Virus record (IMG/VR): IMGVR_UViG_3300047160_003987 | Source: an uncultured virus (IMG/VR IMGVR_UViG_3300047160_003987) | Taxonomy: Duplodnaviria > Heunggongvirae > Uroviricota > Caudoviricetes | Reading direction: 5' to 3' (one strand) | Length of the DNA: 20,000 nucleotides | In this document: piece by piece, positions 1 to 15,244 of the stretch | Numbering within the stretch: the stretch's first letter is position 1 | How the letters are laid out: each line of letters opens with the position of its first letter | Program-made: the position numbers and the translations under genes | The notes under the pieces: generated by a model | The model's database searches: none | What the model saw: only the letters and a program-made list of their open reading frames with translations | What the model was told of the DNA's origin: nothing

Positions 1-43
1 TCATCCATATCCCATTCGCGTTTCCATTTATCAAACCATCGTC

Positions 44-1606
44 TTATAACGCCCATTGCGAGCCTTTCATTTTCTTTTTCTCCTTGCTGCGGCTGCCATC
101 CGCCAGCCAGATGCCGTCAGGCTTCAGTCCGACCGCCCCCGTCATCCCGGCGTCAGCCGCATTGCTCGCCCAATTGTGCAACGGGACCGACGTCCACTGT
201 GCCAGCTGTTTGCTCCACGTCTTGCGGTAATTATCGAGGCATTCCACCAGCCTCGTACAATGCTCGCTATCGATCCACGTCAATGACAGCATCTTGCGCA
301 ACGCCTCGATCGCATCCTCCTTGTCAAGTACCCGAGGCACGATCTCGAAGTCGATCCCAAGGTCTGACGCTATCTCCTTCCGCGTCTTCGCATCATTCGC
401 CCAACTGCGATGGCCAATATCATGCGGGCCATAATGTTTGCCAAGCGTAAAGCCACGCTTTGCAGCGATCTCATGCACCTTGCTGGCATAATGCTGCACG
501 CCCTCGCCAACGTTCTCGTAATAGTCGATAATGCGATGCCGCGTTCCGTCCGTCTGATGAAACCAAATAGCGTTCTGGTTATTCTTGGTTTCCAACCCGA
601 TATCCCAGAACGTATTGACCAAATAGTTGGGATCATGCGGGATCGGATAGCCTATCCTGCGCTCTTCTCTAGCCTTCTGCATCTCCTTCTTAAACCACGT
701 GCCCTCCATCGAATTGTAGAAGGTCTCTTCCATCATGCTCGGAAATTCCGAGTGCATGTCGTCGCGCCCGAGCGTCTGATGCTTCAGCACATACCAAGCT
801 TTCTGCTCCGGCGTCAGACTGATGGCGTGCTTGTGGAACAGAATATCAAAATAGTCGCGCATCTCGCTGCTGATGATCGCAAGGTTGGTCTGCACCGCAT
901 ATTTCGGGTCCATCCACCATGCGAAAAAATGTAACCTGAAGTCTAGCTGTGACAGCGACTGCCCTGAGCGCATCTTGGCCTCGGCGGTCTGCACCATGTC
1001 ATAGAATTGACCGCTTGTGCCGTGCGCGGTGCTTTCGATCTTTACCTTTTGACCGGGGGCGATGGTATTTAAGGCGCCCGTTTTTATCTCGCGTGCAATA
1101 TCCGGTTTGTCCGTCGCTATCTTCCCATACTCCGATATATGCAAATACTGCAGCGTCCCACCGCGGTGGCTGGTCCCCACATAACACGTAGATCCGTTTG
1201 ACCATTTAAGCTCCTCTTCGTTGTCCTTGATCAACCGGATCGTTTCGCGCACCGAAGACGGCGTCCCTATATAGGCGGTCCTAACCTTCTGCAGCTTCAG
1301 CTTGGCATCATCCAGCGTATAGTCGATGATGCCTGCCGTGAAGTTCTTGCGCCAAATACAATGATCGGCAATGTCTATGGCTATCTCAGAAGACATGCCA
1401 AGCTGCCGGGCCTTGACCACGATATCAAGCAGCCATTGCTCTCGTGCATACTTCTGTTGAGCTACCCGCCGCCGATAGGGCACCAATTGCCCCTGTTCAT
1501 TAAGGATCGAATACAGAGAATTCATCCGCCTATCACGATCGGAAAACCGATAGCGCAAGTCTTTATAAATGTCTGACCCCTTGAGAATAGAAACTGGTTC
1601 GGTCAT
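44..1606 (-). CDS. terL: Phage terminase large subunit (520 aa)
   Basis: N-terminal ATPase: Walker A-like VVKARQLGMS, Walker B YLHISE, coupling motif KIESTA. C-terminal RNase H-like nuclease: FWDIG, IIDYYEN, GPHD, HNWASNAADA. Length is typical of TerL. Confidence 0.96.
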   Translation of the reverse strand: MTEPVSILKGSDIYKDLRYRFSDRDRRMNSLYSILNEQGQLVPYRRRVAQQKYAREQWLLDIVVKARQLGMSSEIAIDIADHCIWRKNFTAGIIDYTLDDAKLKLQKVRTAYIGTPSSVRETIRLIKDNEEELKWSNGSTCYVGTSHRGGTLQYLHISEYGKIATDKPDIAREIKTGALNTIAPGQKVKIESTAHGTSGQFYDMVQTAEAKMRSGQSLSQLDFRLHFFAWWMDPKYAVQTNLAIISSEMRDYFDILFHKHAISLTPEQKAWYVLKHQTLGRDDMHSEFPSMMEETFYNSMEGTWFKKEMQKAREERRIGYPIPHDPNYLVNTFWDIGLETKNNQNAIWFHQTDGTRHRIIDYYENVGEGVQHYASKVHEIAAKRGFTLGKHYGPHDIGHRSWANDAKTRKEIASDLGIDFEIVPRVLDKEDAIEALRKMLSLTWIDSEHCTRLVECLDNYRKTWSKQLAQWTSVPLHNWASNAADAGMTGAVGLKPDGIWLADGSRSKEKKKMKGSQWAL

Positions 1607-1612
1607 CGCGCA

Positions 1613-1981
1613 TCACAAGAATGAAGCCGCGTCGCAGAACGAAAAGGTCGCTCCCGCGTTCCAGTTGATATAATTAAAACCCGATAGCCGTCGCGACAAA
1701 TTCCCGGCTGTGCGCGCATTGCTGGCAAGTGGCCCAAGTAACTGCAACTCATATCTAATTTGCTGGTTATCCGGAACCTCAATCCCAAGCACCCTTGCCG
1801 TGTCAATACCCGGGCCAGGGAAGATGATCGACACCGGCGTCGCACCATTGGAAACCCCCAGCGCGCTCCATACGGGGGGTTCTTCAGCAAGCCACACCGT
1901 ATCCACCGCCATGCGCCGCTGATGCGAGACAAACATTTGCGCAAGGCCGTTGTACCCGAAGATGCGGACCGTGAAAGCCAT
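1613..1981 (-). CDS. Hypothetical beta-rich phage protein, possibly virion-associated (122 aa)
   Basis: Start overlaps the upstream stop (TGATG) and the stop lies 6 nt before terL. Weak similarity by eye to the 14927-15244 product. Confidence 0.75.
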   Translation of the reverse strand: MAFTVRIFGYNGLAQMFVSHQRRMAVDTVWLAEEPPVWSALGVSNGATPVSIIFPGPGIDTARVLGIEVPDNQQIRYELQLLGPLASNARTAGNLSRRLSGFNYINWNAGATFSFCDAASFL

Positions 1982-2181
1982 CAGTGTCTTATCCCTATCG
2001 AACCAAACCGGCGCTTGCCGACCGGCTTACCTTTGTGCACCCGCGCCGGAAGGTGCTTATAGGCTCCCGGCCCATGTGGTGATGCCGCTATGAACTCCCG
2101 CGCCACCTTTGCGGTCTTCTCTGGGGCATTTTCTGCTGCCCAGCGAGCCCACCGGTTTTGTGCCAAAGACACGAGCGGCAT
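1981..2181 (-). CDS. Small basic phage protein (66 aa, MPxxSxAQxRW... type)
   Basis: Strong SD GAGGAG upstream of ATG at 2181. The N-terminus MPLVSLAQNRW and the later HLPARV resemble small basic proteins often encoded near phage terminase genes (recalled, not searched). Confidence 0.75.
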   Translation of the reverse strand: MPLVSLAQNRWARWAAENAPEKTAKVAREFIAASPHGPGAYKHLPARVHKGKPVGKRRFGSIGIRH

Positions 2182-2199
2182 TTCACCCTCCTCATCTAT

Positions 2200-2286
2200 T
2201 TACCAACCGGACTTTGGCTTCGGCCTGCGCCAGCTAGGCTTTGGCTTCGGTCTGCGAGGCGGCTTGGGTTTTGGTTTCCTTGCCAT
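2200..2286 (-). CDS. 28-aa Lys/Arg/Pro-rich peptide MARKPKPKPPRRPKPKPSWRRPKPKSGW (not in ORF track)
   Basis: Hand-translated. GAGGAG SD lies 6 nt before ATG (2286), TAA is at 2200-2202, and the ORF fills the gap between two genes. An in-frame upstream ATG at 2367 would give 55 aa. Confidence 0.65.
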   Translation of the reverse strand: MARKPKPKPPRRPKPKPSWRRPKPKSGW

Positions 2287-2389
2287 TTCGTTCTCCTCAT
2301 TTTCACCTACGGGCTTGGCTTTACTGGCGATGCCCTGCTGGAACCGCCAGTAAACATCTTTGATCATCTACGAACCTGGCCACCCCCTG

Positions 2390-2968
2390 TTACCTACGGG
2401 GTTGGCCACCGCTGTAGGCGACTGAACCACTCGCGGAAGCTGAACCGCTTGCGCTCCCGCTGCCGCCGTCCGGGGGGACCGGTTGCGGCTTGCCACCTCC
2501 GCCCGGTGGGTACCAGATCAGAACAAAACCCCACCTGTTCGTCCAGTACCATTGCCAGCCCTCGCTAAGCCCACCATCGGGCGGACATATCGGCGGCTTT
2601 TCCGGTGGGGTTGGCGGTTCTGGCAGCACGATCGGATGCGCCGGATGGGGCGGCATCGGCCGCGCCCACGGCGGCGAATAACCCGGATCAACCGGAGGCT
2701 CGGGATAGTGGATCGGCGGTGTCGCCACTGGAGGATAATAGATCGGCGGCGTCGCTATGCCAGCAGGAGGATAGTGGATCGGTGGCGTGACCACAGCATC
2801 TGGAGGCCATACCCCAGGCGGTTGGTAGATCGGATGCGCCGGATAGACCGGGGGTGTCGCGATCGGATGCGCAGGAACAGGCGGCGGTCCAGGGATGCCA
2901 TAGCCTGGATCGACCGGACGCTGCTGATCATCAAGCAGAATGATGTACGCAAGAGAACTCCTCGCCAT
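2390..2968 (-). CDS. Proline-rich repeat protein (192 aa; PVDPGY, PAHPI, TPPIxYPP repeats)
   Basis: AGGAGG SD upstream. Clear internal peptide repeats and a Trp-rich segment WQWYWTNRWGFVLIWYP. Confidence 0.85.
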   Translation of the reverse strand: MARSSLAYIILLDDQQRPVDPGYGIPGPPPVPAHPIATPPVYPAHPIYQPPGVWPPDAVVTPPIHYPPAGIATPPIYYPPVATPPIHYPEPPVDPGYSPPWARPMPPHPAHPIVLPEPPTPPEKPPICPPDGGLSEGWQWYWTNRWGFVLIWYPPGGGGKPQPVPPDGGSGSASGSASASGSVAYSGGQPRR

Positions 2969-2982
2969 TGTGACCTCCTAGC

Positions 2983-3351
2983 CTATTGGTTATCCGCCAT
3001 GAACCCGGGGGGAAGCACATTCCCCATCCCACCGGTAACACCGGGGACCGCTGTCGGTGCGCCCATGTCCGGTAACGAGGCCGCAGCGCCCGGAACGGGT
3101 AAAGGCGCAGCAACGGGCCGTTTCTTTCCGATCGCCCCAAAGGGCGCTTTCGGCAATGCTGGCATTTTGGGGATACCAGGCGGGGCCGCGATCGAAGCGG
3201 CGATCCTGTCATGATGGGCTTGCGTGATGTGCCCCTGCTGCAGCAGATGTTTTGCACTGGCACGGGTCAGGTTGCGCATATGAGACGGCGTCTGTGCCAT
3301 CATCTGAGCCGGTGTCTTTGTCATCATCATATGAGCTGATATCTTTGCCAT
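2983..3351 (-). CDS. Hypothetical protein with His-rich helix and Pro/Ala/Gly-rich tail (122 aa)
   Basis: GAAAGGG SD-like sequence upstream; co-oriented; fills the gap. Confidence 0.75.
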   Translation of the reverse strand: MAKISAHMMMTKTPAQMMAQTPSHMRNLTRASAKHLLQQGHITQAHHDRIAASIAAPPGIPKMPALPKAPFGAIGKKRPVAAPLPVPGAAASLPDMGAPTAVPGVTGGMGNVLPPGFMADNQ

Positions 3352-3393
3352 GATAGCGACCCTTTCTCAAAACGCCGGCACCGTATCAGACCA

Positions 3394-3633
3394 TCATGAC
3401 AGATGCCATATTCTCACGAGTTTGAGCCCCTTTTCGGTGCGCTGCATCTTCCACAGATGGCCCTTCTGATCGGCGAATACCTGCATGAGACCGGCTTGCT
3501 CTGGCAGCATGGCCGCCTGCCACGGTATCTCATCGATACCGCCGTTCAAGATCATATACCGGATGGTATTATGGTTGGCCTTGATCTGTTCGATCGGCGT
3601 CAGTCGGCCGCCATCATCCGCGCGCTTATCCAT
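3394..3633 (-). CDS. Hypothetical protein (79 aa)
   Basis: GAGGAGG SD upstream of ATG at 3633; co-oriented. Confidence 0.75.
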   Translation of the reverse strand: MDKRADDGGRLTPIEQIKANHNTIRYMILNGGIDEIPWQAAMLPEQAGLMQVFADQKGHLWKMQRTEKGLKLVRIWHLS

Positions 3634-3650
3634 TATGACCCCTCCTCGAG

Positions 3651-3691
3651 AAAAAGGGCGGCGGAAGGAGCATCACCACCTCCCGCCGCCC
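3651..3691 (-). terminator. Probable intrinsic terminator
   Basis: Minus strand GGGCGGCGGGAGG-UGGUGAUGCU-CCUUCCGCCGCCC-UUUUU: 13-bp GC-rich stem with one G-U, 10-nt loop, U5 tail. Confidence 0.7.
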
Positions 3692-3731
3692 CGGCGTCGC
3701 ACGCTTGCTGCTGCTGCAAGGACCATACGCC
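3651..3731 (-). ncRNA. Candidate small RNA with two stem-loops and an anti-RBS loop
   Basis: Upstream interrupted hairpin GGCGU..CUUGC-loop-GCAAG..ACGCC (3693-3731) followed by the terminator hairpin. Positions 3665-3676 are complementary to the early-gene RBS leader. Function is inferred. Confidence 0.35.
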
Positions 3732-3741
3732 AAGCCACATT

Positions 3742-4044
3742 CTATCTCTGAGGTTCCACATGGTCAACTGGGGGCTTACTCTCGACTGGAAGCTTATTCC
3801 CTTCGGTCTCGACTCGGGGCTTATTACCTTCGATCATCTGCTGCACGACCTCGCAAGTCTCAATGACCGCCACCGCCTTGCCATCAGCCAAATTGATCAG
3901 GCAATTGGTGGCCTTGTGATACATCCGATCATGCTCGGTCACACCTTCCCGCGGCCCACGCAGACTCGTTATCTGATCCGGGTTGACCTCAATGGCCGCG
4001 CCATCAGCACCATGCAATAGAATAAGAACGAACAGGAAGAGCAT
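3742..4044 (-). CDS. Small protein with FlbD-like pattern (about 100 aa)
   Basis: Pattern LILLHGADG..IEVNPDQITSL...CLINLADGKAVAVIETCEVVQQMI recalls FlbD-family (NPDxI..I.L.xGK..xV.E..xEV). Start placed at ATG 4044 after GGGGAAG; the ORF track starts at TTG/GTG 4065. Confidence 0.7.
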   Translation of the reverse strand: MLFLFVLILLHGADGAAIEVNPDQITSLRGPREGVTEHDRMYHKATNCLINLADGKAVAVIETCEVVQQMIEGNKPRVETEGNKLPVESKPPVDHVEPQR

Positions 4045-4064
4045 ATCTTCCCCCATCTGTTGCA

Positions 4065-5861
4065 CTACGCAAGGACAACCCCCTTCCAGGCGCCGTCATA
4101 TATCCAGAACTTGTGGTTGGTCGTGTCATAGATCATAGGCACAAGACCGGTATATGTCGCCGCGGGAACACCAGTCGGTGCACCGGCGCACGTGGGAATG
4201 TAAAAGAAGCCGGTTGTGGCAGTCGTAGCAAGCGCGCCACCGACAGCGGCCCCGACAGCAACATTGCGCTTGCTGTCGATACGAAGCGCCTCAATAGGGG
4301 AAACAGAGCCACTGGCGGCAACATCGAAATACAAAGCCCCCGGCATCCCGCCAACAGCTGGAACATTATCAACCAGCGCACGGATCTGAGACGATCTGCC
4401 AAACTGCGTGCTGTCATCCCCGGCAAACACAAGCCGGCCAATTTCATCCGCATTCTGAACCGTGGTGAATGTACCGGGACTGGTAGACCGGGACTTGAGC
4501 ATCTGCAGAGAAACGCCTCGGTTATCCGCTATCCAGGCCTGATAACCCGCCCCACCGGTAAAGTCAGCATAACCGGCAATATTCAACCTCGGTACGGATA
4601 ACCCGGATGCCGCATAACGCTGGCCCGTGGTCAGGCCCAGGAATGTCTCCCCACTCGGTCCGGTAAATATGCCAGCCAGCGCAGGCGAGCTGACGTTGCC
4701 GCCCCCGTTGCCAACGTACCACGTGTTTCGAACCATGATGGTCGTGTTGGCAACGGCATTGTTGATACCATAGCCAGCATTGTTGCGGATCGTTGTGCCA
4801 TCAACAAGGATGATAACCGTCGTACTGTTGTTCCGAATGCCATCCCGACCCGAATTGTAAATTGTCCCGCCGATAAACTGCACAATGCCGTTATGGCCGC
4901 TGACAATACTTACATCGTCCTGGCCGGACGAACTCGATGCGATCCAGGTGCCATCAAATGAAAACCAAGCACTGGCATTGGTCAACGTGTCGGCAAGCTG
5001 AACACATGGCCCGCTTGACGGACTATCAAGCGCCAAAGCCGGACCGAAGAAAACCTCACGGTTGCCCTCGGCGGCATAGTCATTTGAAATACGTAAATTT
5101 ATGCCGTTGCCAATAACGTTGCCCGAATTGAAATACAGTCCGCCAAACCCGCCAGCGACATGAACGCCGATAGCGCATAATGAAACCTTCAGGCCTTCGC
5201 GAATGGTTAGATCAGCCTTTGCACCTGTACCCACTGTGCCGTTAATGCGCAGTCCATCCTGTTGGGCAACTATCTCACGCCCACCATAGACGCAATTATC
5301 CAAAGCATCCCACCAAACGCCATTGAAAAGCTTGTTGCCGGCCGCGCCGTAGCGGGACTGCCCGGCTACGCTGAAATTAATTTCGGACTGGATGACGTTC
5401 TTGATATGAACGGCAGCGCCTGCCGTCATGGTCGTATTGCTATCGATATAAATAGAACCAATTCTTATCCGGGCCTGCTGCACAGCGCCAGTAATGTCAC
5501 CCACAGTAATGATGTCTGATGTGGTTCCCGCACCTGTATATCTAATTACGACCTCTGTAGCGGCACTCTGGGTTTCTAACGCAAAATAACTGCCATTCAA
5601 CGTCAACGGCTGCGATGTCATGTAAATGCCGGAAGATAAAACACCGGCTCGAGGAGCAGATAAAGAAGCGCCTGCCAGCCATGTAAAAAACGCCTGCAAA
5701 GCAATACTGTCATCCGTCGCACCATTCCCAACAGCGCCAAAGTCTTTTGCATTCGCAACCATTGCAAACCGGTCCGCAAGGTCCTGCGATGTCGTTCCCA
5801 CACTCGCCAAAAACGGCAAGCTATTTATGTCGGTCCCCACAATTTGGCGAGAAAAGACCAT
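4065..5861 (-). CDS. Tailspike / receptor-binding protein with pectin-lyase-like parallel beta-helix (about 598 aa)
   Basis: N-terminal VANAKDFGAVGNGATDDSIALQA (Pectate_lyase_3-type start motif), Asn/Gly-rich beta-helix-like core, C-terminal GFFYIPTCAGAPTGVP...YDTTNHKFWIYDGAWK typical of phage fibres. Start placed at ATG 5861 after GGAGG; the ORF track starts at 5873. Confidence 0.85.
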   Translation of the reverse strand: MVFSRQIVGTDINSLPFLASVGTTSQDLADRFAMVANAKDFGAVGNGATDDSIALQAFFTWLAGASLSAPRAGVLSSGIYMTSQPLTLNGSYFALETQSAATEVVIRYTGAGTTSDIITVGDITGAVQQARIRIGSIYIDSNTTMTAGAAVHIKNVIQSEINFSVAGQSRYGAAGNKLFNGVWWDALDNCVYGGREIVAQQDGLRINGTVGTGAKADLTIREGLKVSLCAIGVHVAGGFGGLYFNSGNVIGNGINLRISNDYAAEGNREVFFGPALALDSPSSGPCVQLADTLTNASAWFSFDGTWIASSSSGQDDVSIVSGHNGIVQFIGGTIYNSGRDGIRNNSTTVIILVDGTTIRNNAGYGINNAVANTTIMVRNTWYVGNGGGNVSSPALAGIFTGPSGETFLGLTTGQRYAASGLSVPRLNIAGYADFTGGAGYQAWIADNRGVSLQMLKSRSTSPGTFTTVQNADEIGRLVFAGDDSTQFGRSSQIRALVDNVPAVGGMPGALYFDVAASGSVSPIEALRIDSKRNVAVGAAVGGALATTATTGFFYIPTCAGAPTGVPAATYTGLVPMIYDTTNHKFWIYDGAWKGVVLA

Positions 5862-5872
5862 TGTTGCCTCCA

Positions 5873-5922
5873 TTCATCTCATGTAGGTCCCAACAAGTTC
5901 ATCTCATGTAGGTCCCAGCAAG
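5873..5922. repeat. Tandem 25-bp direct repeat (24/25 identical)
   Basis: ttcatctcatgtaggtcccaacaag (5873-5897) and ttcatctcatgtaggtcccagcaag (5898-5922). Confidence 0.95.
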
Positions 5923-6146
5923 TAAAAACCATCCGCACCCAAAAGAAGCTCACCGTCAGCCCCCACCAAATAAACCAACCCAGACCCCAATAAATAAGCA
6001 CCATCTCCACCCTGAAGGAACGCGCCATCAGCCCCCTGCAAATAAACTAACCCATCCGGTGGAACAGGAAGCTGAGGCTCAAACACAATGCGCCGCGCGC
6101 TCTCGATCGTGTAGCGAAGCTGCGCCTTCGTGGTGAGAATTTTCAT
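5904..6146 (-). CDS. Small protein with LxG(A/G)DGxxL repeats, possible fibre/spike adaptor (80 aa)
   Basis: ATGA overlap with the upstream gene; four LxGxDGxxL units in the C-terminal half. Confidence 0.75.
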   Translation of the reverse strand: MKILTTKAQLRYTIESARRIVFEPQLPVPPDGLVYLQGADGAFLQGGDGAYLLGSGLVYLVGADGELLLGADGFYLLGPT

Positions 6147-6634
6147 TTCTTCTTCTTAACGTCTGCAGCAGGTGATCTCGATGACGGAGATACATCCTCG
6201 ACCGGCGAAACCTCTTCCCATGGCGGCATAGATGATCTCTTGGCTACATCCGGTTGTGCGTTCTTGACCATATCGGGTCCCTCGATCTCCCCTGACTGCC
6301 CTGTGCTAGGTGGCGGCATGTAACCCGGGGGCCACGGCACCGGGTTGTTAGGGTTGAGCGGCATATTGACCGGATATTGCCCATAATGGGGCGGAATAGC
6401 TGGATCATCGCCATCCTTCACCCATTTCGGGATCTTTTGACTAGTGATCGAAAGATCAGTCAGCGCATCCTCGACTTTGTAGATGATCGCCTGCACACGT
6501 TCCTGGCTGTTGCATTGGCCAAGATCACCTCTGATCTCTTTGAAGGCCGCCGTGTTCGCCTTGATGACATCGACAAGACCGTCATGCGAGGTCTTGGCAT
6601 TCAACACCGGCAACAACATTGCGTTGGTATCCAT
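6143..6634 (-). CDS. Hypothetical protein: helical N-terminus, Pro-rich disordered C-terminus (163 aa)
   Basis: GGAGG/GAGG upstream; co-oriented; ATGA coupling downstream. Confidence 0.8.
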   Translation of the reverse strand: MDTNAMLLPVLNAKTSHDGLVDVIKANTAAFKEIRGDLGQCNSQERVQAIIYKVEDALTDLSITSQKIPKWVKDGDDPAIPPHYGQYPVNMPLNPNNPVPWPPGYMPPPSTGQSGEIEGPDMVKNAQPDVAKRSSMPPWEEVSPVEDVSPSSRSPAADVKKKK

Positions 6635-6646
6635 CCTCTATCCTCC

Positions 6647-6910
6647 CTACGGAAGCATTTTGAATAAATGTGACTTCTGCGTCGGCGATCCGCTGTCATA
6701 GGCAAATATCACCTGCACCAACGCATCATGCGCCCCCGTGACATCAGCCGCAACAATATCGGTGCGCGCATCTTGCGATGCGAAATACCTCGTAATGAGC
6801 GTGCTATCCGCATCTATGATCGAATTGGTCGTGCGCAGGTCTTCGATCATCGCAATGAGGCTCTGGATCTTCGAGACATACAAGTTCATGAAACTGATAG
6901 GGTTCGACAT
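6647..6910 (-). CDS. Hypothetical helical protein (87 aa)
   Basis: GGGAG SD upstream; co-oriented; fills the gap. Confidence 0.8.
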   Translation of the reverse strand: MSNPISFMNLYVSKIQSLIAMIEDLRTTNSIIDADSTLITRYFASQDARTDIVAADVTGAHDALVQVIFAYDSGSPTQKSHLFKMLP

Positions 6911-6935
6911 TTACCCAACTCCCATTCTGAACATC

Positions 6936-7607
6936 TTATCCGACTCCCATAAGAGACATTGTTCCGCCCTTCGCCGCCGCCGCACCAGTCGCAGTGTAGT
7001 ATGTTGACGCAACGACCGCCCAACTGCCAGACCCCGATGTGAATGCACAAACTTGCGTCCCCGTCGCCGAAACTGACTTCCATTCCTCGCCGCGGCCCGA
7101 CACCGTACCCTGGTTCATCAGCGTAAAACCCGAGCCCGCCGTCGGGGTCGGACCCGTCGTCACCATTCCAACATGAACAACCTCAGTCGCAACCGTCGTC
7201 GCCCCCGTCGTCACCGTCCCGTTAGCCGATGCACCGGAATTCGTCGCCGACTGATCCAGCACAAACCCATTCGCATTGCCACCACTGTCCGTGATCTCGC
7301 AAATGCCGACCGAAAAGAACGTCGCCGTGCCCGTATAAGCCACCGACACCGTATCAGTCCCACCAATGCCCTGCTTCACATAGTAGGTCTTGCACTGACA
7401 CGTATTGTCGCTGGTGGTCCGTGAACCAACCAGTATGAAGGTATTGCCCACCGTATCGGTCGGCGTGCTGATGGTGAGCGAATTGTCGCCTGTCACATGG
7501 ACGATAATGCCGCGGTTGGCCGTCGTCGCCGACGTGAACGCCGCAGTCATGGGACTCGACGGCGTCAGCGTATCAGTCAGTTTAGAGTTGGTAAGTGTAA
7601 TAGCCAT
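6936..7607 (-). CDS. Thr/Ser/Gly-rich all-beta protein, probable virion appendage component (223 aa)
   Basis: Starts 3 nt after the giant fibre gene. Composition and the TDTVGNTF motif suggest a beta-sandwich structural protein. Confidence 0.8.
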   Translation of the reverse strand: MAITLTNSKLTDTLTPSSPMTAAFTSATTANRGIIVHVTGDNSLTISTPTDTVGNTFILVGSRTTSDNTCQCKTYYVKQGIGGTDTVSVAYTGTATFFSVGICEITDSGGNANGFVLDQSATNSGASANGTVTTGATTVATEVVHVGMVTTGPTPTAGSGFTLMNQGTVSGRGEEWKSVSATGTQVCAFTSGSGSWAVVASTYYTATGAAAAKGGTMSLMGVG

Positions 7608-7610
7608 TGT

Positions 7611-10600
7611 TTATGTACACTGCACATAAAGCGCGGTAATAAAGATCGATGATGCCGCCGCCGACACCGTCGCCGTCCAATTGTTCGCCGCCGTCGCCTG
7701 CACCATCGCACTGTCAACCGGCACCGTAAAACCTCGCATGTCGCCCGCAGGAACCATCACCGTCATGCGCGTTGTTCCCGCCGTCGAATCCTTGATCGCA
7801 ACGTTGACCGCCGTGCCGCTCGTGTTCGAGATCGTCAGGCCATAAATATCGTTGAATACACCCGATGAGCCCGCCGTCACGATCGTGGTTTCCGTCGTCG
7901 TTGTGATCGTCGTGGTCTGAAGCTTCTTGAGATCGCGCAGCGCCCCCACCACCACCTGCTTGCCAAGCTTGTCAAATATTGCAGTGACACGCTGGCCATC
8001 ACTGACCGCGGTCGGGTTTGCCGTCTTGGCAAGGCCGCCAATTTTCTGTGGGTTGCCGCTGTCCGTCGTGCCGGACGCTATTTCGCCGACACACTGCTGG
8101 TTCACAGTCGACTTGATATTCACCAGCACGTTGCCGGCGCTGTCCAACTGCAACGGCGAGGAATTGCCGCTGGTGATCGTCGTCGGCGTGGTGTTGAACT
8201 CACCCCCGATCAAAATAGCCTGCCCAGGCGTCGCAATGTTCTGCGTCGAGGCAAAGTCAAAGACACCGCCGCCATTGCCGACACAGCGCGAGGTCCATGT
8301 GCCACCTTGCGAGGCCGTGCACAGGAAATTCGCAGCATTGTTCTGAAATGCCAGCGTCTCATGCGCCGCCGTCGTCAGATCCGACTGCACCGCCACCGTG
8401 CCCGTGCCGGCAATGACCGTCGACAACCTGGCGCGGACGTTGGTCGCCCCCGTCGCAATGATCTGGAAGGCCTGGTTCGTGCTGGCCACAAACGTATAGG
8501 GGTTGGTCAGCTGCGATCCCGTTACCGGGTCGATCAGCCGGCTGACCGGAATGGTCTTGTAATTCGTGCCGCCATCATACGACTCTTCGAACGTCACTGC
8601 GCCACCCGTCAGCGTCGTACCCTGTGTCAGCTGGCCTACAATGGTGTTGTAGGTGACAAATGTTGTCGCCAGCATGCTGATGACGGAATTCAGCGTCGTC
8701 ACCGACGTCCATGATCCAGTGCCTTGCGTCGGACTCGGCGTATAAACCCACAATGGTGACGCATTGCTGCCAAGCTCGATCCCCGTCGCCGTCCGCAAAT
8801 TGACAAAACCGGCGCGGTTGGCCGTCATCTGCCACGCACCGCCCTGCCCATTGGTCAAGGCATTGTTCGTGGCCGTGGTCTGGAAAAAACCGCCCGCAGG
8901 CGTGTAATTGGTCGTGCCCGCGGTAAATGCCGCCGCGTCCTGCGCCGCCGTGCCGCCACTGCCGGCCCCCGCCTTGATGTTGACCAGCAAATTGCCGGAC
9001 CCATCCATCTGCAGCGGGCTCATGTTGCCGCTGGTGATGGCCGTCGGCGACGTGTTGAACTGCGCCAGCGCCATTACGCCATTGGCCACACTCGCGCTGT
9101 TCTGCGTGCTCGACCCAATGCCCCAGTTCGCCGCCGTCAGCGGATCAACCTGCCCCTTTAAATTTGCCGCCGTGGCCTGTTGCACCGTCACCGCGGCCGC
9201 AACGCTCACCGGCTGTGTCACTGCGCTGCCATCGACCTTCAGCGCCGTCGTATTCGCCCCCGTGCCGGTCAGATCAACCCGCAGCCCGCCCGTCGTGGTC
9301 AGGCTCAATGGGCTGGTCTGGGCCGTCGTATAAGATGGCGCAGACGTCGTGACTGCCCCCATGCCCAAATTGCCCGTCTGTCCCGATGTCGTCGACCCCT
9401 GGGTGGCATTGCTCGGTTGGTTGGCGCTGGTTGAAGCGCCGGTCGGCAGCGATACCGTGCCGCTGACATTGGTGATGTTCCAGGTCCCGCTCTGGCTGGC
9501 CGGAAACACCCCGCCCGTGCCCGTCACCAGCCACGCCGTGGTATTCGCCGTGTTGCCCGGTTGAACCGTCCAGGTCCCACTCTGCGTCACCGCCACAGTG
9601 CCGCTGACAGGCTGAGTGACCGCCGAGCCGTCAACGCGAAGCGCACCGGCCGTGGTCAGCGAAAAAGGACTAGTCTGCGCGGTCGTATAGCTTGGCGAAC
9701 CGGTAGTGACGGCGCCCATGCCCAACGTACCAGTTTGGCCCGACGTCGTTGATCCCTGCCCCGCATTGCTCGGTTGGTTTGCGCTGGTCGACGCCCCGGT
9801 TGGCAGACTGATCGTTCCAGAGATATTCGTGACGTTCCAGGTGCCGCCTTGGTTCGCCGTCACGGTCCCGCTGACCGGCTGCGTGGCTTGCCAGAACGTT
9901 CCGCTCACCGGCTGGGTGACAGCTGAACCATCGACGCGTAGGGCCCCGGCAGTCGTGAGCGATAGATAATTGCTGGTCGCCGTCGTGTACGAGGGCGCCG
10001 CAGTAGTCACAGCACCCAAAGCTAAACCGCCCGTTTGACCGGACGTGGTGCTCGCTGCAGCAGCGTTCGTAGGCTGGTTCGCTGAAGTAGCCGCTCCCGT
10101 AGGCAGGGGCAGGCTGGCAGCACTCACAGGCTGGGTCGCCTGCCAAAACGTTCCCGTGACCGCCACAGAGGCGTTCGTCAAATTGACGTTCGCGCTCGTC
10201 GACGTCATCGCCCACGTCGTTCCGTCCGGCTTCATACTCCATGGGGCACCCCCTTGGTTCGCCGTAACCGTGCCAGTCACCGTCGCCGTGCCAGTAATGC
10301 TGACCGAACCCGATACCGGCTGTGTCGTCGCACTGCCATCAACGCGTAAACCACCCGCGGTCGTCAGGCTTAACGGGTTGGTCTGCGCCGTCGTGTAGGT
10401 CGGCGCACCCGTCGTGGTAAACCCCATAGCCACGTTGCCAATTTGGCCCGAGCTGGTCGAGCCAACTGCCGCCGCCGTGGGTTGGTTCGCCGATGTAGCC
10501 GCGCCAGTAGGCAGTGGCAGGGAGGCCGCCGACACCGGTTGCGTCGTCTGCCAGAACGTCCCCGTCACCGCGACAGACGCATTCGTCAGGTTGACATTGG

Positions 10601-13600
10601 CAGACGTCCCAGTCAGCGCCCAGGCCGTCCCGTCCGGCTTCATCGTCCATGGCGCACCTCCTTGGTTCGCAGTGATGGTCCCAGATACCGGCTGCGTCAC
10701 CCCCGAGCCGTCAACCACAAGCCGGCCAACCGAACTCAACAGCAAGCCGTTCATTTGCCCCGTGGTCAGCGTCGGCGGGCTGGTCAAATATTGCCCGCCT
10801 ATCGCCGTGCCCGTCGCTGGAAAGCTCGATCCGAACGAACTCGATGTCCCGCCGCCACCCGAGCCCGCGATCACATTGACCCGAACCGCACCACTGGTAT
10901 CCAGGCTGATCGGACTGGTCTGGCCCGTCGTATAGCTCGGGTTGCTGGTCGTCACCGCACCCATCGACAGCGCGCCAGTCTGGCCACTCGTTGTCGACCC
11001 CTGCGCCGCATTGCTGGGTTGGTTGGCCGATGTCGCGGCGCCGGTCGGAAGGCTGATGGTGCCTGAGATATTATTGATATTCCAAGTGCCGCCCTGCGAG
11101 GCCGTGCACAGCAGGTTGGCAGCATTGTTCTGGTAAGCTACCAACTCATTTAAATTCGGCGTCGATAAATAATAGATCGTGACCGTGCCAGTCCCAGCGA
11201 TCACAGTCGACAACCGAACACGAACCTGGGCGCTGCCCGTACTAACGATCTGCCAGGCCAAATTGGTGTTCGCTACCAGCGTATACGGGTTGGCAATTTG
11301 CGCCCCCGTCGACGGATCGATCAGCCGCCCAGCCGGCACCGCCTTCCATACCGTGCCATTGTCAAACGTCTCTTCAAACGTCACCGCGCCGCCAGTGATC
11401 GTGGTCCCTTGCGTCAGTTGCCCCTGCAGCGTGTTATATGCAGCACTGCTGCTGGGAATAACTGCGACCGTCGTGTTCAGCGCCGTCGCCGAGGTCCATG
11501 CCACCGAACTCTGCGTCGACGGCAAACTCGGAATGACAAAAAGCGGTGAGCCGCTAACACCCAATTGGTTGCTGTTGGCATCCCGCAAATTCACCTGCAA
11601 AGCCCGATAGGCCGTCAGCTGCATCGTGCCCTGCTGGCCAGCTGTCAGCGGGTTGCTGTTCGCGCTCGCCTGATAAAAACCGCCAGACGGTGTAAAATTG
11701 CTGCTGCCCGCCGTGAACGTGCTTTCATCCGCCGCCGCCGTCCCACCACTGCCCGCACCAGCCTTGATATTCACCAACAAATTGCCAGCACTATCCAGCT
11801 GCAGCGGGCTGGCATTCCCCGACGTGATGGTCGTTGGCGTCGTATTAAACTCGCCACCCACCAGGAACGCATTGGCCGGCGCCGACACATTCTGCCCGGC
11901 AAAGTCCAGGATCGCACCCGCATTGCCAACCGTGCGACTGGTCCAGTTGCCACCCTGGTTCGCCGTGATGGTGCCGCTGATCGGTTGCGTCACCGCCGAG
12001 CCATCCACCTTCAACGCACTCGAGGCCGTGACCGCCGCCGTGTTGCCGCCCTGGCTGATCGAGGTCAACCATGGCGTGCTGTTGGCGGTATTGCCGGGCT
12101 GAACCGTCCACGTGCCGCCCTGCGAGGCTGTGACCGTGCCGCTGACAGGCTGGATCGTGGCCGAGGCATCCGTGCGTAACGCACCCGCCGTGGTGAGCGA
12201 GAACGCATTGCTCGTCGCTGTCGTATAGGACGGCGCCGCAGTCGTTACAGCACCAAGAGCCAGATGTCCGGTCTGCCCCGTCGTCGTACTGCCCAATGTC
12301 GCATTGCTGGGCTGGTTCGCTGATGTTGCAGCCCCAGTCGGTAACGAAACGGTCCCCGAGATATTCGTAATGTTCCAGGTGCCCGACTGCGTCGCCGCCA
12401 CTGTACCCGAGATCGAGACCGAGCCCGAAATAGGCTGCGTCACCCCGCTGCCATCCACACGCAGCGCCCCCGCCGTCGTCAGCGATAACGCATTCGACGT
12501 CGCCGTGGTGTAGCTCGGCGCACCCGTCGTGACCGCCCCCAGCGATACCGTCCCAGTCTGCCCCGATGTCGTCGACCCCAGGCTCGCATTCGATGGCTGG
12601 TTCGCACTGGTCGACGCCCCCGTCGGCAGCGAGATCGTGCCCGTCACATTGGTGATGTTCCAAGCCCCGCTCTGCGTCGCCGCAATGGTCCCGCTCACAG
12701 GCTGCGTCGCCTGCCAGAAGGTCCCGCTCACGGGTTGCGTCACAGCGCTGCCATCGACTTTAAGCGACCCGGACACATTGGTCTGCAGCGCCACCATCTG
12801 GCCATTGGTCAGCGACGGCGGTGTCGAAAGGTATTCAGCGCCCGCCGCGGTGCCCGTCGTCGGAAACGTCGCGCTGAAGTTGGAACTTGTCCCGCCGCTG
12901 CCCGCCCCACCCGTAATATTCACGTTCAGCGAACCCGACGTGCTCGAGATCGCATTCCCCGACCCATCCTGCGTCCGCGTCAACCATGTCCCGCCCTGGT
13001 TCGCAGTCACAGTTCCGGATACGGGCTGCGTTACACCGGACCCATCCACCCGGATCGCACCCGCCGTTGTCAATGAGATCGGGTTGGTGTTCCCATTCGT
13101 ATACGTCGGCGCCGAAGTCCCCACAGCGCCCTGCACCAACGTTCCCGTCTGCCCGGCTGTGGCCGAACCCTGCGCCGCCGCCGTCGCCTGGTTCGCGCTC
13201 GTGGCCGCCCCAGATGGCAACGGAAGGGCACCAGCAGAGATCGGCTGTGTCACTGCCGACCCATCCACCTTCAGCGCGCCCGCCGCGCTCACGGTGGCGC
13301 TGTTGCCCCCCGCATTGACCGTCATCAGCCATGGCGTCGTGTTCGCCGTGTTCCCAGGCTGCACCGTCCAGGTTCCCGACTGGCTCACAGGAACCGTGCC
13401 CGTGATCCCGATCGAACCCCCCGAGATGGCGACCGTCCCGGATACAGTCTGCGTCACCCCGGACCCATCAACCCGCAATGCACCCGCCGGCGTGAGACTC
13501 AGCGGGTTGGTCTGGCTGGTCGTGTAACTCGGCGCCGCCGTCGACGTCGCCCCCATCGCCAGATGCCCGGTCTGACCGGATGTCGTCGACGCAATAGCCG

Positions 13601-13970
13601 CATTCGTCGGCTGGTTCGCCGCCGTCGCCGCACCCGTCGGAAGGCTGATGGTCCCCGTGATGTTGGTGATGTTCCACGTGCCGCTCTGCGTGGCCGCCAG
13701 CGTCCCCGATACCGACCACGGCCCGCCGCTCTGCGTCACGGCGCCAATAACGTTCGCCCCCGCCTGCAGCACAATGCCGCCAACAATGTCCCGCGAAATC
13801 GAACGCAACTTGGCAGAGACCGACCCCGCAGCGCCAGCTGTCACCGCGAGGTCCGTTGACGCGCCATAGGTGATATTCGCACCGTCAAGCAGCGTCTGCC
13901 CCAACGTCGTGATGGTGCCGGTCCCCGAGGTGGGAACGCCGTTGACGATGCCTACAATGGGATCGGCCAT
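7611..13970 (-). CDS. Giant repetitive fibre/adhesin-like virion protein (2119 aa)
   Basis: Uninterrupted 6.36-kb ORF dominated by T/G/A/S/N/Q/V with few charged residues. Nine copies of an approximately 68-aa LP(T/S)GA(A/S)T(S/A)ANQ...SLTTAGALRVDGSxVTQPVS module plus other repeated modules. Confidence 0.9.
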   Translation of the reverse strand: MADPIVGIVNGVPTSGTGTITTLGQTLLDGANITYGASTDLAVTAGAAGSVSAKLRSISRDIVGGIVLQAGANVIGAVTQSGGPWSVSGTLAATQSGTWNITNITGTISLPTGAATAANQPTNAAIASTTSGQTGHLAMGATSTAAPSYTTSQTNPLSLTPAGALRVDGSGVTQTVSGTVAISGGSIGITGTVPVSQSGTWTVQPGNTANTTPWLMTVNAGGNSATVSAAGALKVDGSAVTQPISAGALPLPSGAATSANQATAAAQGSATAGQTGTLVQGAVGTSAPTYTNGNTNPISLTTAGAIRVDGSGVTQPVSGTVTANQGGTWLTRTQDGSGNAISSTSGSLNVNITGGAGSGGTSSNFSATFPTTGTAAGAEYLSTPPSLTNGQMVALQTNVSGSLKVDGSAVTQPVSGTFWQATQPVSGTIAATQSGAWNITNVTGTISLPTGASTSANQPSNASLGSTTSGQTGTVSLGAVTTGAPSYTTATSNALSLTTAGALRVDGSGVTQPISGSVSISGTVAATQSGTWNITNISGTVSLPTGAATSANQPSNATLGSTTTGQTGHLALGAVTTAAPSYTTATSNAFSLTTAGALRTDASATIQPVSGTVTASQGGTWTVQPGNTANSTPWLTSISQGGNTAAVTASSALKVDGSAVTQPISGTITANQGGNWTSRTVGNAGAILDFAGQNVSAPANAFLVGGEFNTTPTTITSGNASPLQLDSAGNLLVNIKAGAGSGGTAAADESTFTAGSSNFTPSGGFYQASANSNPLTAGQQGTMQLTAYRALQVNLRDANSNQLGVSGSPLFVIPSLPSTQSSVAWTSATALNTTVAVIPSSSAAYNTLQGQLTQGTTITGGAVTFEETFDNGTVWKAVPAGRLIDPSTGAQIANPYTLVANTNLAWQIVSTGSAQVRVRLSTVIAGTGTVTIYYLSTPNLNELVAYQNNAANLLCTASQGGTWNINNISGTISLPTGAATSANQPSNAAQGSTTSGQTGALSMGAVTTSNPSYTTGQTSPISLDTSGAVRVNVIAGSGGGGTSSSFGSSFPATGTAIGGQYLTSPPTLTTGQMNGLLLSSVGRLVVDGSGVTQPVSGTITANQGGAPWTMKPDGTAWALTGTSANVNLTNASVAVTGTFWQTTQPVSAASLPLPTGAATSANQPTAAAVGSTSSGQIGNVAMGFTTTGAPTYTTAQTNPLSLTTAGGLRVDGSATTQPVSGSVSITGTATVTGTVTANQGGAPWSMKPDGTTWAMTSTSANVNLTNASVAVTGTFWQATQPVSAASLPLPTGAATSANQPTNAAAASTTSGQTGGLALGAVTTAAPSYTTATSNYLSLTTAGALRVDGSAVTQPVSGTFWQATQPVSGTVTANQGGTWNVTNISGTISLPTGASTSANQPSNAGQGSTTSGQTGTLGMGAVTTGSPSYTTAQTSPFSLTTAGALRVDGSAVTQPVSGTVAVTQSGTWTVQPGNTANTTAWLVTGTGGVFPASQSGTWNITNVSGTVSLPTGASTSANQPSNATQGSTTSGQTGNLGMGAVTTSAPSYTTAQTSPLSLTTTGGLRVDLTGTGANTTALKVDGSAVTQPVSVAAAVTVQQATAANLKGQVDPLTAANWGIGSSTQNSASVANGVMALAQFNTSPTAITSGNMSPLQMDGSGNLLVNIKAGAGSGGTAAQDAAAFTAGTTNYTPAGGFFQTTATNNALTNGQGGAWQMTANRAGFVNLRTATGIELGSNASPLWVYTPSPTQGTGSWTSVTTLNSVISMLATTFVTYNTIVGQLTQGTTLTGGAVTFEESYDGGTNYKTIPVSRLIDPVTGSQLTNPYTFVASTNQAFQIIATGATNVRARLSTVIAGTGTVAVQSDLTTAAHETLAFQNNAANFLCTASQGGTWTSRCVGNGGGVFDFASTQNIATPGQAILIGGEFNTTPTTITSGNSSPLQLDSAGNVLVNIKSTVNQQCVGEIASGTTDSGNPQKIGGLAKTANPTAVSDGQRVTAIFDKLGKQVVVGALRDLKKLQTTTITTTTETTIVTAGSSGVFNDIYGLTISNTSGTAVNVAIKDSTAGTTRMTVMVPAGDMRGFTVPVDSAMVQATAANNWTATVSAAASSIFITALYVQCT

Positions 13971-13972
13971 GC

Positions 13973-14916: not shown

Positions 14917-14926
14917 CGCTTTGCCC

Positions 14927-15244
14927 TCATGAATTGGTGATCACGCTCACAACATGGCCGGCGCCATCCTGCACCATCTTGTATTCAGTCTGGTTCGCCG
15001 CAAGCCTTTGGTTGTTCGCCGTCGCAGTCGTCGTCGCCGGCGGGCCTATCGCGATCGAACAGACCACATCCGTATGCAGCCGGACCAGACGCGTGTTCGC
15101 ATTGAAGGGCGATGACTGCGCCGCCGAGGCGCCTATCGTTATCGGCGCCTGATCCACGATCCCGGGCTCACGCACCAGCTGCGGCGCAGAGTTGGAAAAG
15201 GCCTGCGGAAGGTCATGATATTCAGTGACATATAGTTTCGCCAT
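14927..15244 (-). CDS. Small beta-rich phage protein, probably virion-associated (105 aa)
   Basis: AGGGGA SD. MAKLYVTEY...TRLVRLHTD...RLAANQTEY resembles small phage structural proteins (recalled, not searched). Confidence 0.8.
   Translation of the reverse strand: MAKLYVTEYHDLPQAFSNSAPQLVREPGIVDQAPITIGASAAQSSPFNANTRLVRLHTDVVCSIAIGPPATTTATANNQRLAANQTEYKMVQDGAGHVVSVITNS

What the first reader, a model, noticed from the sequence alone, without database searches (positions are those of the whole stretch)
3651..3731. Candidate late antisense RNA targeting a shared RBS leader of three early genes
Seen: on the minus-strand transcript the terminator hairpin loop and adjacent stem read GUGAUGCUCCUU (3676-3665). 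This is the exact complement of AAGGAGCAUCAC in front of the gene starting at 19743 (12/12). It also matches 11/11 in front of the gene at 19444, and 10 exact plus G-U and A-U pairs in front of the gene at 19244. The match covers the SD and also the non-SD spacer CAUCAC up to the start codon. A second hairpin (3693-3731) precedes it, giving a roughly 80-nt two-stem-loop unit. Known: loop-exposed anti-SD seeds are how many trans-acting bacterial sRNAs block translation. Inference: a 3'-end-derived RNA from the late cassette could co-ordinately shut off a set of early genes tagged with one leader, forming a phage-encoded early-to-late RNA switch.
Basis: partly seen in the sequence, partly recalled or inferred. 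Interest (0 to 1): 0.82.

Follow-up and report, generated by a model that had tools for sequence, protein, structure and literature searches.

The report
Conserved phage RNA loop matching early-gene leaders
A soil phage carries a short promoter-driven RNA whose hairpin loop is unchanged across distant relatives and is the exact complement of a ribosome-binding leader shared by many of its early genes, so it may be an RNA that shuts those genes off together.

Summary
On the minus strand, 3692..3655 folds into a 14-bp G+C hairpin with a U-run. Its 10-nt loop (3678..3669) plus 3' arm complement the leaders at 19755..19744, 19456..19445 and 19257..19246.

New evidence:
- The unit has its own sigma-70-like promoter (3767..3739). 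It is a roughly 82-nt promoter-to-terminator unit ahead of the packaging genes, not just an operon 3' end.
- Nine distinct versions in related soil phages keep a 12-nt loop core unchanged. Six of 12 stem pairs show compensatory changes. All nine keep the promoter.
- The 9-mer GAGCATCAC sits 0-3 nt before a start codon in 19 of 24 non-loop copies, always in sense. Relatives lacking the hairpin lack the leader.

Best reading (about 0.45): an anti-leader RNA that blocks translation of a leader-tagged early gene set, like P1 c4 RNA.

Cautions:
- Loop and leader are both invariant, so there is no compensatory evidence for pairing.
- The invariant UUGG does not pair with the leader.
- The U-tract is good only in the window.
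- One provirus (G012) has the hairpin but no leader.
- No RNA data exist.

Main rival: a cis-acting, factor-bound (nut/put-like) hairpin.

The parts
3762..3767 (-). -35 hexamer TTGACC of a sigma-70-like promoter
   Evidence: Best promoter-like site of the window, 10 of 12 matches. TTGNNN-N17/18-TANNNT is present once in the 260 nt upstream of the loop in 9 of 9 class L versions.
3739..3744 (-). -10 hexamer TAGAAT. It overlaps the stop codon of the 107-aa gene 3742..4065. The predicted transcript start is near 3732.
   Evidence: The start site is inferred from the usual spacing, not measured.
3693..3731 (-). Hairpin 1 of the short RNA. Its sequence is not conserved.
   Evidence: Present in the MFE and centroid folds. 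RNAalifold on 6 versions did not recover a consensus for it.
3655..3692 (-). Hairpin 2: a 14-bp G+C-rich stem carrying the conserved loop
   Evidence: Covariation on 8 versions: 12 pairs, 6 with changes on both sides, 94.8% of cells paired, 0 of 500 shuffles reach the score.
3669..3678 (-). Loop UGGUGAUGCU. The core UGGUGAUGC is invariant in all 13 aligned hairpins. It is the complement of the leader GAGCAUCAC.
3651..3655 (-). U-run after hairpin 2, the intrinsic-terminator tail
   Evidence: In the other 8 class L versions the 9-nt tails shown after the stem are U-poor by my reading.
3394..3648 (-). SD (3648..3640) and 79-aa first gene of the downstream operon, which leads to the large terminase at 1606..44
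   Evidence: TerL: phrog_2472 at 4e-62, phrog_2 at 2e-13. The 79-aa protein is conserved in G003, G004 and G005.
19744..19755 (-). Leader AAGGAGCAUCAC directly before the ATG at 19743 (69-aa gene 19743..19534)
   Evidence: Predicted net pairing energy with the loop is -5.9 kcal/mol.
19445..19456 (-). Leader UAGGAGCAUCAC before the ATG at 19444 (62-aa gene 19444..19256)
   Evidence: Net energy is -7.3 kcal/mol, rank 1 of 30 TIRs. The alignment to the near-identical record G001 breaks inside this motif.
19246..19257 (-). Leader AGGGAGCAUCAC, 1 nt before the ATG at 19244 (52-aa gene 19244..19086)
   Evidence: Its ortholog in G004 (39% aa identity) keeps the 9-mer while the flanks differ.
19760..19774 (-). 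Small 5'-UTR hairpin GAGCC-ACUGG-GGCUC upstream of the 19743 leader. It is part of a repeated hairpin-plus-leader cassette.
   Evidence: A scan for the cassette found it in 24 stretches of IMG/VR contigs.
19460..19473 (-). Equivalent small hairpin upstream of the 19444 leader
   Evidence: Read from the sequence.

Best explanation
The unit at 3767..3651 (minus strand) is a small RNA gene or leader. A host-type promoter drives an RNA of about 82 nt with two hairpins. In this phage the RNA ends at an intrinsic terminator just ahead of the packaging operon. The loop of hairpin 2 is held constant by selection because it base-pairs in trans with the sequence (G)GAGCAUCAC. That sequence forms the Shine-Dalgarno element and spacer directly before the start codon of a set of small early-region genes: at least 9 in this phage and 2-4 in each relative. 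Pairing would cover the ribosome-binding site and block initiation, so the tagged genes would be turned down together as the RNA accumulates.

Shown: the structure, the covariation of the stem, the invariance of loop and leader, the conserved promoter, the position of leaders at gene starts, and the co-occurrence of hairpin and leader.

Inferred: that the RNA is made, that the two elements pair, the direction of the effect (repression), and its timing.
For: 1. The complementarity is exact and rarer than chance (6 matches against 1.45 expected, 0 of 200 shuffles).

2. Nine distinct class L hairpins all carry (U/G)UGGUGAUGCUC in the loop: the window, L011, L013, L014, L052, L066, L206, L212 and L234. 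Four class E hairpins after a cro-like gene carry UUGGUGAUGCG. Stems differ by compensatory changes. On 8 versions, 12 pairs were scored, 6 changed on both sides, and 0 of 500 shuffles reached the score.

3. Exact GAGCATCAC copies outside loops lie 0-3 nt before a start codon of an ORF of at least 30 aa in 19 of 24 cases, all in sense: window 3/3, G002 6/6, G004 2/4, G005 3/5, G007 3/4, G008 2/2. The reversed-pattern control gives 0-1 per record against 3-7 observed.

4. Orthologous leader genes at 39-60% aa identity keep the 9-mer while the flanking bases and the spacing to ATG differ. The tagged proteins are otherwise unrelated.

5. Co-occurrence: every hairpin-bearing record of the window and G007 lineages long enough to judge has leaders (window phage, G004, G005, G007, G008, L206, L212, L234). 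TerL relatives without the hairpin (G006, G009, G010) have 0 exact copies.

6. In the window, the three leader TIRs rank 1-3 of 30 TIRs for loop pairing after opening costs: -7.3, -5.9 and -5.2 kcal/mol, with the next at -3.8.

7. There are 17 G-U pairs in the stems on the UUGG strand and no A-C. This fits folding of that strand.

8. No phage protein is shared (E<=1e-5) between either phage compared (G004 or G007) and G012 or G013, which argues against a phage-encoded protein partner.
Against: - No compensatory change links loop and leader, because both are invariant. Pairing itself is therefore untested.
- The invariant UUGG at the 5' side of the loop is not complementary to the leaders, so something else also constrains the loop.
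- Class E loops match only 7 contiguous nt of the leader.
- In the window the CUCCUU part is buried in a 14-bp stem, and net predicted energies are modest.
- Part of the match (GGAG with CUCC) is the generic SD/anti-SD type. The loop's GGUGAU also resembles an extended SD, from my recall of the 16S 3' tail.
- The U-tract is canonical only in the window. In relatives the element is probably a 5' UTR rather than a free small RNA.
- In the G007 lineage a leader gene lies 0.9-1.5 kb downstream of the hairpin on the same strand in 4 of 5 contigs. There is thus no clean early/late split there.
- G012 (a provirus, rated 100% complete) has the hairpin antisense to its flanking genes and no other copy of the 9-mer.
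Confidence: 0.45

Rival explanations
1. A cis-acting regulatory hairpin in the 5' part of operons, working like lambda nut boxB, HK022 put or a PR'-tR' late leader. The conserved loop would be the docking site for a host or phage factor that controls termination, read-through, stability or translation of the downstream operon. Its complementarity to the leaders would be secondary.
For: - A promoter is followed within about 80 nt by a strong terminator directly ahead of the packaging genes, in the window.
- The same loop core occurs at a second operon-proximal place, right after a cro-like HTH gene, in the G007 lineage. This recalls nutR/tR1 after cro (recalled).
- The invariant UUGG is not explained by leader pairing.
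- G012 keeps the hairpin without leaders.
Against: - It does not explain a 9-10 nt exact complement to an independently conserved TIR motif in the same genomes.
- No protein is shared (E<=1e-5) between either phage compared (G004 or G007) and G012 or G013, so any factor would have to be host-encoded.
- The U-tract is poor in 8 of 9 class L versions, so termination control is not the conserved feature.
- No boxA-like element or N- or Q-like protein was identified, though none was specifically searched for.
Confidence: 0.25
2. A DNA-level element. The 10-14 bp motif would be a site for a DNA-binding protein, or for packaging or replication machinery, used in either orientation. The flanking inverted repeat would form a DNA hairpin or cruciform.
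For: - The motif occurs in both orientations relative to genes: antisense in classes L and E, sense in G012 and G013.
- The class L site lies just upstream of the packaging module.
- An XRE-type HTH protein (w18620, 85 aa) is shared by the window, G005, G007 and G008.
Against: - The leaders sit at a fixed 0-3 nt from start codons and always in sense. That is a translation-level signature.
- The arms covary rather than being conserved or drifting, and they use G-U but never A-C pairs. This indicates folding of one strand.
- The HTH protein is not found in G012 or G013.
Confidence: 0.08
3. A ribosome-binding loop. GGUGAU in the loop would pair with the AUCACC part of the 16S rRNA 3' tail and act as a standby or loading site, or as a decoy, for 30S subunits. 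The leader would resemble the 16S tail, so the complementarity would be indirect.
For: From the sequence, the loop reads GGUGAU + G + CUCC and the leader reads GGAG + C + AUCAC. Each is built from SD-like and 16S-tail-like halves. The 16S tail sequence is recalled, not taken from any call.
Against: - Only 6 bp would pair with 16S, against 9-10 with the leader.
- The downstream genes have their own SD 12-25 nt after the hairpin.
- No known role exists for a 16S-tail copy in an mRNA spacer.
- The host and its 16S sequence are unknown.
Confidence: 0.07
4. An ordinary terminator or stabilising hairpin whose loop matches the leaders by chance or by descent from an inverted copy of a leader, with no interaction.
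For: The hairpin is a good intrinsic terminator in the window. Leaders are recombination-prone repeats.
Against: A neutral loop would not stay identical over 12 nt in 9 versions whose stems changed at 6 of 12 pairs and whose shared proteins are 35-83% identical.
Confidence: 0.05

Closest known systems
c4 antisense RNA of phages P1 and P7
   Same: A small phage RNA whose loop-exposed sequences pair with complementary sites around a ribosome-binding site elsewhere on the phage genome and block translation (review PMC12197685, passages read).
   Different: c4 controls one operon (icd/ant) as an immunity function and is cut from the same transcript (recalled). Here a single loop would address a shared leader on many unrelated genes spread over two divergent early regions. 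The RNA has its own promoter at the head of the packaging operon. There is no sequence relationship and no Rfam match.
Lambda 6S RNA (the short PR'-tR' transcript ahead of the late genes)
   Same: The architecture in the window is the same: a host-type promoter followed at once by a strong terminator, directly upstream of the packaging and late genes. The review lists lambda 6S as an Hfq-bound phage sRNA of unexplored function (PMC12197685, passage).
   Different: No Q-like antiterminator or Q-binding element was identified. The terminator tail is not conserved in relatives. The conserved feature here is a loop sequence with a matching target, which is not described for 6S.
Lambda nut boxB / HK022 put RNA (cis-acting antitermination hairpins; recalled)
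   Same: Promoter-proximal hairpins with a specific loop. In the G007 lineage a copy sits after the cro-like gene and another further downstream.
   Different: No boxA, N-like or Nun-like partner was found. Those elements are not complementary to the TIRs of other phage genes.
T4 RegA translational repressor and RegB endoribonuclease (review PMC3014915 seen only in a search listing; otherwise recalled)
   Same: The outcome is the same: co-ordinate post-transcriptional shut-off of many early genes through a signal in their translation initiation regions.
   Different: Those are proteins recognising loosely defined sites (RegB: GGAG). Here the proposed effector is an RNA and the tag is an exact 9-mer.
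Loop-exposed anti-SD seeds of bacterial sRNAs (for example C-rich loops of staphylococcal RNAIII or RsaE; recalled)
   Same: A hairpin loop pairs with SD regions of several mRNAs.
   Different: Those seeds target the generic SD. Here two thirds of the match is the non-SD spacer CAUCAC, which makes the regulon private to the phage.

Membership tests
Trans-acting base-pairing phage RNA (c4-like) | A discrete small transcript with its own promoter or processing and a defined 3' end | tested here: inconclusive
   A promoter-like site is found in 9 of 9 versions. A canonical terminator tail is present only in the window. No RNA data exist: one search listed no RNA holder.
Trans-acting base-pairing phage RNA (c4-like) | Structurally exposed sequence complementary to the target's ribosome-binding region | tested here: met
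   The loop is 10-12 nt. An 8-9 nt exposed complement covers the SD and the spacer up to the start codon.
Trans-acting base-pairing phage RNA (c4-like) | Regulator and target co-evolve (compensatory change) or at least co-occur | tested here: inconclusive
   Co-occurrence and joint invariance are seen. No variant loop was found, so no compensatory test is possible. G012 has the hairpin without a target.
Trans-acting base-pairing phage RNA (c4-like) | Repression of the target that depends on pairing | not testable with these tools
   This needs reporter assays with compensatory mutations.
Intrinsic (Rho-independent) terminator | G+C-rich stem-loop followed directly by a U-tract | tested here: met
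   Met in the window: a 14-bp stem followed by UUUUU. The consensus scan missed it because its loop limit is 8 nt. It is not met in the 8 other class L versions, whose 9-nt tails are U-poor by my reading.
Lambda-type late leader (PR'-tR'/6S with Q antitermination) | A constitutive promoter, then a terminator, directly upstream of the late genes | tested here: met
   Architecture only, and only in the window.
Lambda-type late leader (PR'-tR'/6S with Q antitermination) | A Q-family antiterminator gene and a Q-binding element in the promoter | not tested
   No Pfam or PHROG hit of that kind appeared among the 30 window ORFs. The rest of the genome was not annotated.
N/nut (boxA-boxB) antitermination | A boxB hairpin with a cognate arginine-rich N protein and a boxA element | not tested
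   A hairpin with a specific loop is present after a cro-like gene in the G007 lineage. No boxA or N-like protein was searched for systematically.
Any Rfam family | Score at or above the family's gathering threshold | tested here: not met
   There were 0 matches at gathering over the whole window. The best sub-threshold match on 3600-3800 scored 25 bits against a threshold of 79 and was a generic hairpin.

The most novel reading that the evidence does not exclude
A self-contained, RNA-only gene-class switch. The short leader RNA of the packaging operon, a lambda-6S-like product, would be the effector that silences a whole private regulon of early genes through one shared translation-initiation tag. 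The pair (loop plus tag) would be portable between distantly related phages. This would give a function to late-leader transcripts and would be an RNA counterpart of T4 RegA/RegB. The G012 lineage, where the hairpin lies antisense to a 5' UTR, would be the cis-antisense form of the same kissing loop.
Probability: 0.3. Interest if true: 0.85.

Novelty: new variant of a known kind. Interest (0 to 1): 0.72.

Why it matters
Phage temporal programmes are usually explained by proteins such as repressors, antiterminators, sigma factors and RegA/RegB. The known phage antisense RNAs each control one gene or operon.

A single conserved loop that addresses an exact tag on many unrelated early genes would be a regulon-scale, phage-private RNA switch. 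It would have been found in uncultivated soil phages purely from sequence.

It is directly testable with a leader-reporter fusion and compensatory loop and leader mutations.

Even if the pairing model fails, the element is a new, strongly constrained structured RNA motif with no Rfam family. It has a covarying stem and a 12-nt invariant loop.

Tried and rejected
- Whole-RNA duplexfold against TIRs opened the entire small RNA and was uninformative. I replaced it with a loop-restricted calculation that includes opening energies.
- k-mer over-representation and a GC3-filtered TIR census were dominated by coding repeats and dropped the early genes. They were not used.
- Looked for a homologous unit with a different loop in more distant TerL relatives (G006, G009, G010), by eye, by a hairpin scan and with covariance model R1 over 798,234 bases in 56 sources. 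None was convincing. The L166 hit lies in coding-like sequence.
- Public sequencing runs: no RNA holder was listed.
- GenBank phages: no nucleotide match. The best TerL identity was 41%.
- The genome-contig scan with a 23-base stem-plus-loop pattern gave 1 hit, in a Chloroflexia MAG. It lies in a non-hairpin, apparently coding stretch and I take it as chance. No host or prophage copy was found.
- tRNA idea (the loop pairing with a ...CACCA 3' end): aragorn found no tRNA in six records. No tRNA T-arm context lies next to the motif. I rejected this as unlikely.
- 2119-aa protein as a virion RNA polymerase (which would make the small hairpins N4-type promoters): no support from PDB sequences or Pfam.
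- A 16-base pattern scan of IMG/VR gave 46 stretches. Thirty-one had at most 4 flanking pairs and I set them aside as chance. L219 and L225 are among these, but I count them with L227 as a possible third lineage.
- Earlier findings of this scan: nothing on record.

Full report
**Setting**

The window is part of an uncultivated soil phage (one search lists only soil metagenome DNA runs).
- All sizeable ORFs are on the minus strand.
- Recognisable genes are a large terminase at 1606..44 and a tail-fibre-like protein at 5873..4065. The rest have no family.
- Window 1..19451 is 100% identical to record G001, a 39.2-kb IMG/VR record.
- G001 and G002 overlap in a way that implies a circle of about 63.85 kb.
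- No GenBank phage matches at the DNA level. The best TerL identity to a cultured phage is 41%.

**The observation**

- The minus strand of 3745..3640 folds into two hairpins.
- Hairpin 2 (3692..3655) has 14 pairs, a 10-nt loop UGGUGAUGCU (3678..3669) and a U-run.
- The 12-mer AAGGAGCATCAC is on the + strand at 3665-3676, so the minus-strand RNA carries its complement.
- The same 12-mer is on the minus strand at 19744-19755, abutting the ATG at 19743.
- One-mismatch copies abut the ATGs at 19444 and 19244.
- Six matches with up to 2 mismatches compare with 1.45 expected, and 0 of 200 shuffles reach 6.
However, the CUCCUU part is in the stem, not the loop.

**The unit has its own promoter**

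- The best sigma-70-like site of the window (TTGACC-17-TAGAAT, 3767..3739, minus strand) ends about 7 nt before hairpin 1.
- The unit is therefore a promoter-to-terminator unit of about 82 nt, sitting 18 nt upstream of the 79-aa first gene of the operon that leads to the terminase.

**Relatives**

- A TerL-guided search found 17 IMG/VR loci.
- The flanking genes have diverged: the 79-aa protein is 47-61% identical and the 107-aa protein 36-41%.
- Even so, the intergenic unit is recognisable in L011/L012, L013 (G004, 70 kb) and L014 (G005, 65 kb).
- Loop-pattern scans added L052 (G007, 70 kb), L066 (G008), L206, L212 and L234.
- All nine distinct versions have the loop (U/G)UGGUGAUGCUC.
- On eight of them (L206 was left out because its stem is two pairs longer), I scored 12 pairs. 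Six have changes on both sides and 94.8% of cells are paired. The covariation score is 0.515 against a shuffled mean of 0.154 (0 of 500 shuffles), and slid controls give 0.03-0.24.
- All nine have exactly one TTGNNN-N17/18-TANNNT match in the 260 nt upstream of the loop, 88-155 nt from it. My estimate of the chance rate is about 0.14 per sequence.
- Only the window has a canonical U-tract.
- RNAalifold did not recover a consensus for hairpin 1.

**A second class of hairpin**

- Class E hairpins have the loop UUGGUGAUGCG, covarying stems and U-rich tails.
- They lie right after a cro-like HTH gene in G007, L170, L189 and L191.
- The core UGGUGAUGC is invariant in all 13 aligned hairpins.

**The leader**

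- GAGCATCAC occurs 7 times in G001. Six copies lie just before an ATG, on both strands and in sense to the local genes. The seventh is the loop.
- Over the window, G002, G004, G005, G007 and G008, 19 of 24 non-loop exact copies lie 0-3 nt before a start codon of an ORF of at least 30 aa.
- The 5 misses are 2 in coding sequence, 2 in untranslated sequence and 1 before a short ORF.
- The reversed-pattern control gives 0-1 per record.
- Many leaders are preceded by a small hairpin of the form GAGCC-ANNGG-GGCUC. Read from the sequence, they are also preceded by a promoter-like site, so they look like the 5' UTRs of primary early transcripts.
- The hairpin-plus-leader cassette is found in 24 stretches of IMG/VR contigs.
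- The tagged proteins are small and mostly unrelated.
- Where they are orthologous, the 9-mer is kept while its flanks and its spacing to ATG differ.
- In G004 the tagged genes lie in a lambda-like divergent early region: cro-like HTH, RecE- and NinB-like genes leftward, primase and helicase rightward.
- TerL relatives without the hairpin (G006, G009, G010) have no exact copy.

**Energetics**

- With the interaction limited to the loop plus 1-2 flanking nt, and with opening energies for both partners, the three leader TIRs rank 1-3 of the 30 window TIRs.
- Their net energies are -7.3, -5.9 and -5.2 kcal/mol, and the next best is -3.8.
- This is feasible but modest.

**Interpretation**

Two independently conserved elements in the same genomes are exact complements over 9-10 nt. 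One is held in a loop by a covarying stem. The other is fixed next to start codons and is strand-specific. RNA-RNA pairing that masks the ribosome-binding site explains all three features, so I rank it first (0.45). It works like P1/P7 c4 RNA (review PMC12197685, passages read), but it is aimed at a shared tag on many genes.

The architecture in the window also resembles the lambda PR'-tR' 6S leader. The same review lists 6S as an sRNA of unexplored function.

**What speaks against this reading**

- Loop and leader never vary, so there is no compensatory evidence.
- The invariant UUGG does not pair with the leaders. It fits a YUNR U-turn as seen in antisense RNA loops (recalled), but it could equally mark a protein or other partner.
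- Class E loops match only 7 nt.
- The terminator tail is not conserved.
- In the G007 lineage a tagged gene lies 0.9-1.5 kb downstream of the hairpin in 4 of 5 contigs.
- Part of the match is generic SD/anti-SD.
- Model R1 and the pattern scan exposed a third lineage: the G012 provirus and G013 with terminal repeats. There the hairpin lies between two genes of the opposite strand. G012 has no other copy of the 9-mer.
- An internal U-G pair suggests the UUGG strand folds there too. That would make it a cis-antisense RNA, but this is unproven.
- G004 and G007 share about a dozen proteins at 30-67% identity, so the window and G007 lineages are distant relatives, not independent origins. Neither shares any protein with G012 or G013.

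**Rivals**

- A cis-acting factor-bound hairpin, nut/put/late-leader-like (0.25).
- A DNA-level site (0.08).
- A ribosome-binding loop (0.07).
- A plain terminator with an inherited or chance match (0.05).

**Verdict**

No Rfam family covers the element. My literature check was one full-text search and passages of one review. Neither showed a phage RNA aimed at a shared early-gene leader, though this was not a thorough search.

Noticed in passing
window 19445-19451 and 19656-20000; G001 16942-17362: The 100% alignment between the window and G001 breaks exactly inside the leader of the 19444 gene. G001 carries about 200 bp more there: a small oppositely oriented gene that splits GGA|GCATCAC. 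The same segment appears inverted at window 19882-20000. The repeated leader and hairpin cassettes seem to be junctions of indels and inversions between near-identical genomes.
   Followed up: partly
window 19825-19833; G002 (5 copies): A perfect DnaA-box-like 9-mer, TTATCCACA, lies just upstream of the promoter-like site of the 19743 gene. The overlapping 10-mers occur 5 times in G002. In the window alone this is not above chance. It may mark an origin or a DnaA-dependent early promoter region.
   Followed up: partly
G001 6612-6650 (+); G004 22671-22705 (+): In the window's lineage, the position after the cro-like gene, where the G007 lineage has the class E hairpin, holds a strong hairpin with a C-rich loop (GUGUCCCCCCAGG or UUGAACCCCCU). 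Five to six nt of these loops are complementary to the G-rich part of the small 5'-UTR hairpins. That is too short to judge.
   Followed up: no
window 18620-18877 (-): This 85-aa XRE-type HTH-like protein is the only window protein with a tblastn match in G007 and G008 (43% and 38% identity). In G007 the ORF containing its homolog matches phrog_14076, a transcriptional regulator, at E 2e-5. Pfam finds nothing.
   Followed up: partly
window 7611-13970 (-): A 2119-aa ORF with no family or PDB sequence match. About 740 residues are 69-70% identical in G004 and G005. It contains three near-copies of GGAACATCACCAA, which are internal coding repeats unrelated to the leader.
   Followed up: partly
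L227 5154-5198 (G012 provirus); L219 about 9990-10030 (G013): A third lineage carries the same loop in a hairpin antisense to its flanking genes. The hairpin is about 30 nt upstream of an acidic protein gene. That intergenic region and gene form one of only four short segments shared by the two otherwise unrelated phages, at about 70% DNA identity.
   Followed up: partly
G004 29316 (+): Here the leader 9-mer follows a promoter-like and hairpin-like stretch but no start codon follows it. It may be a decayed cassette or the 5' end of a non-coding transcript.
   Followed up: no
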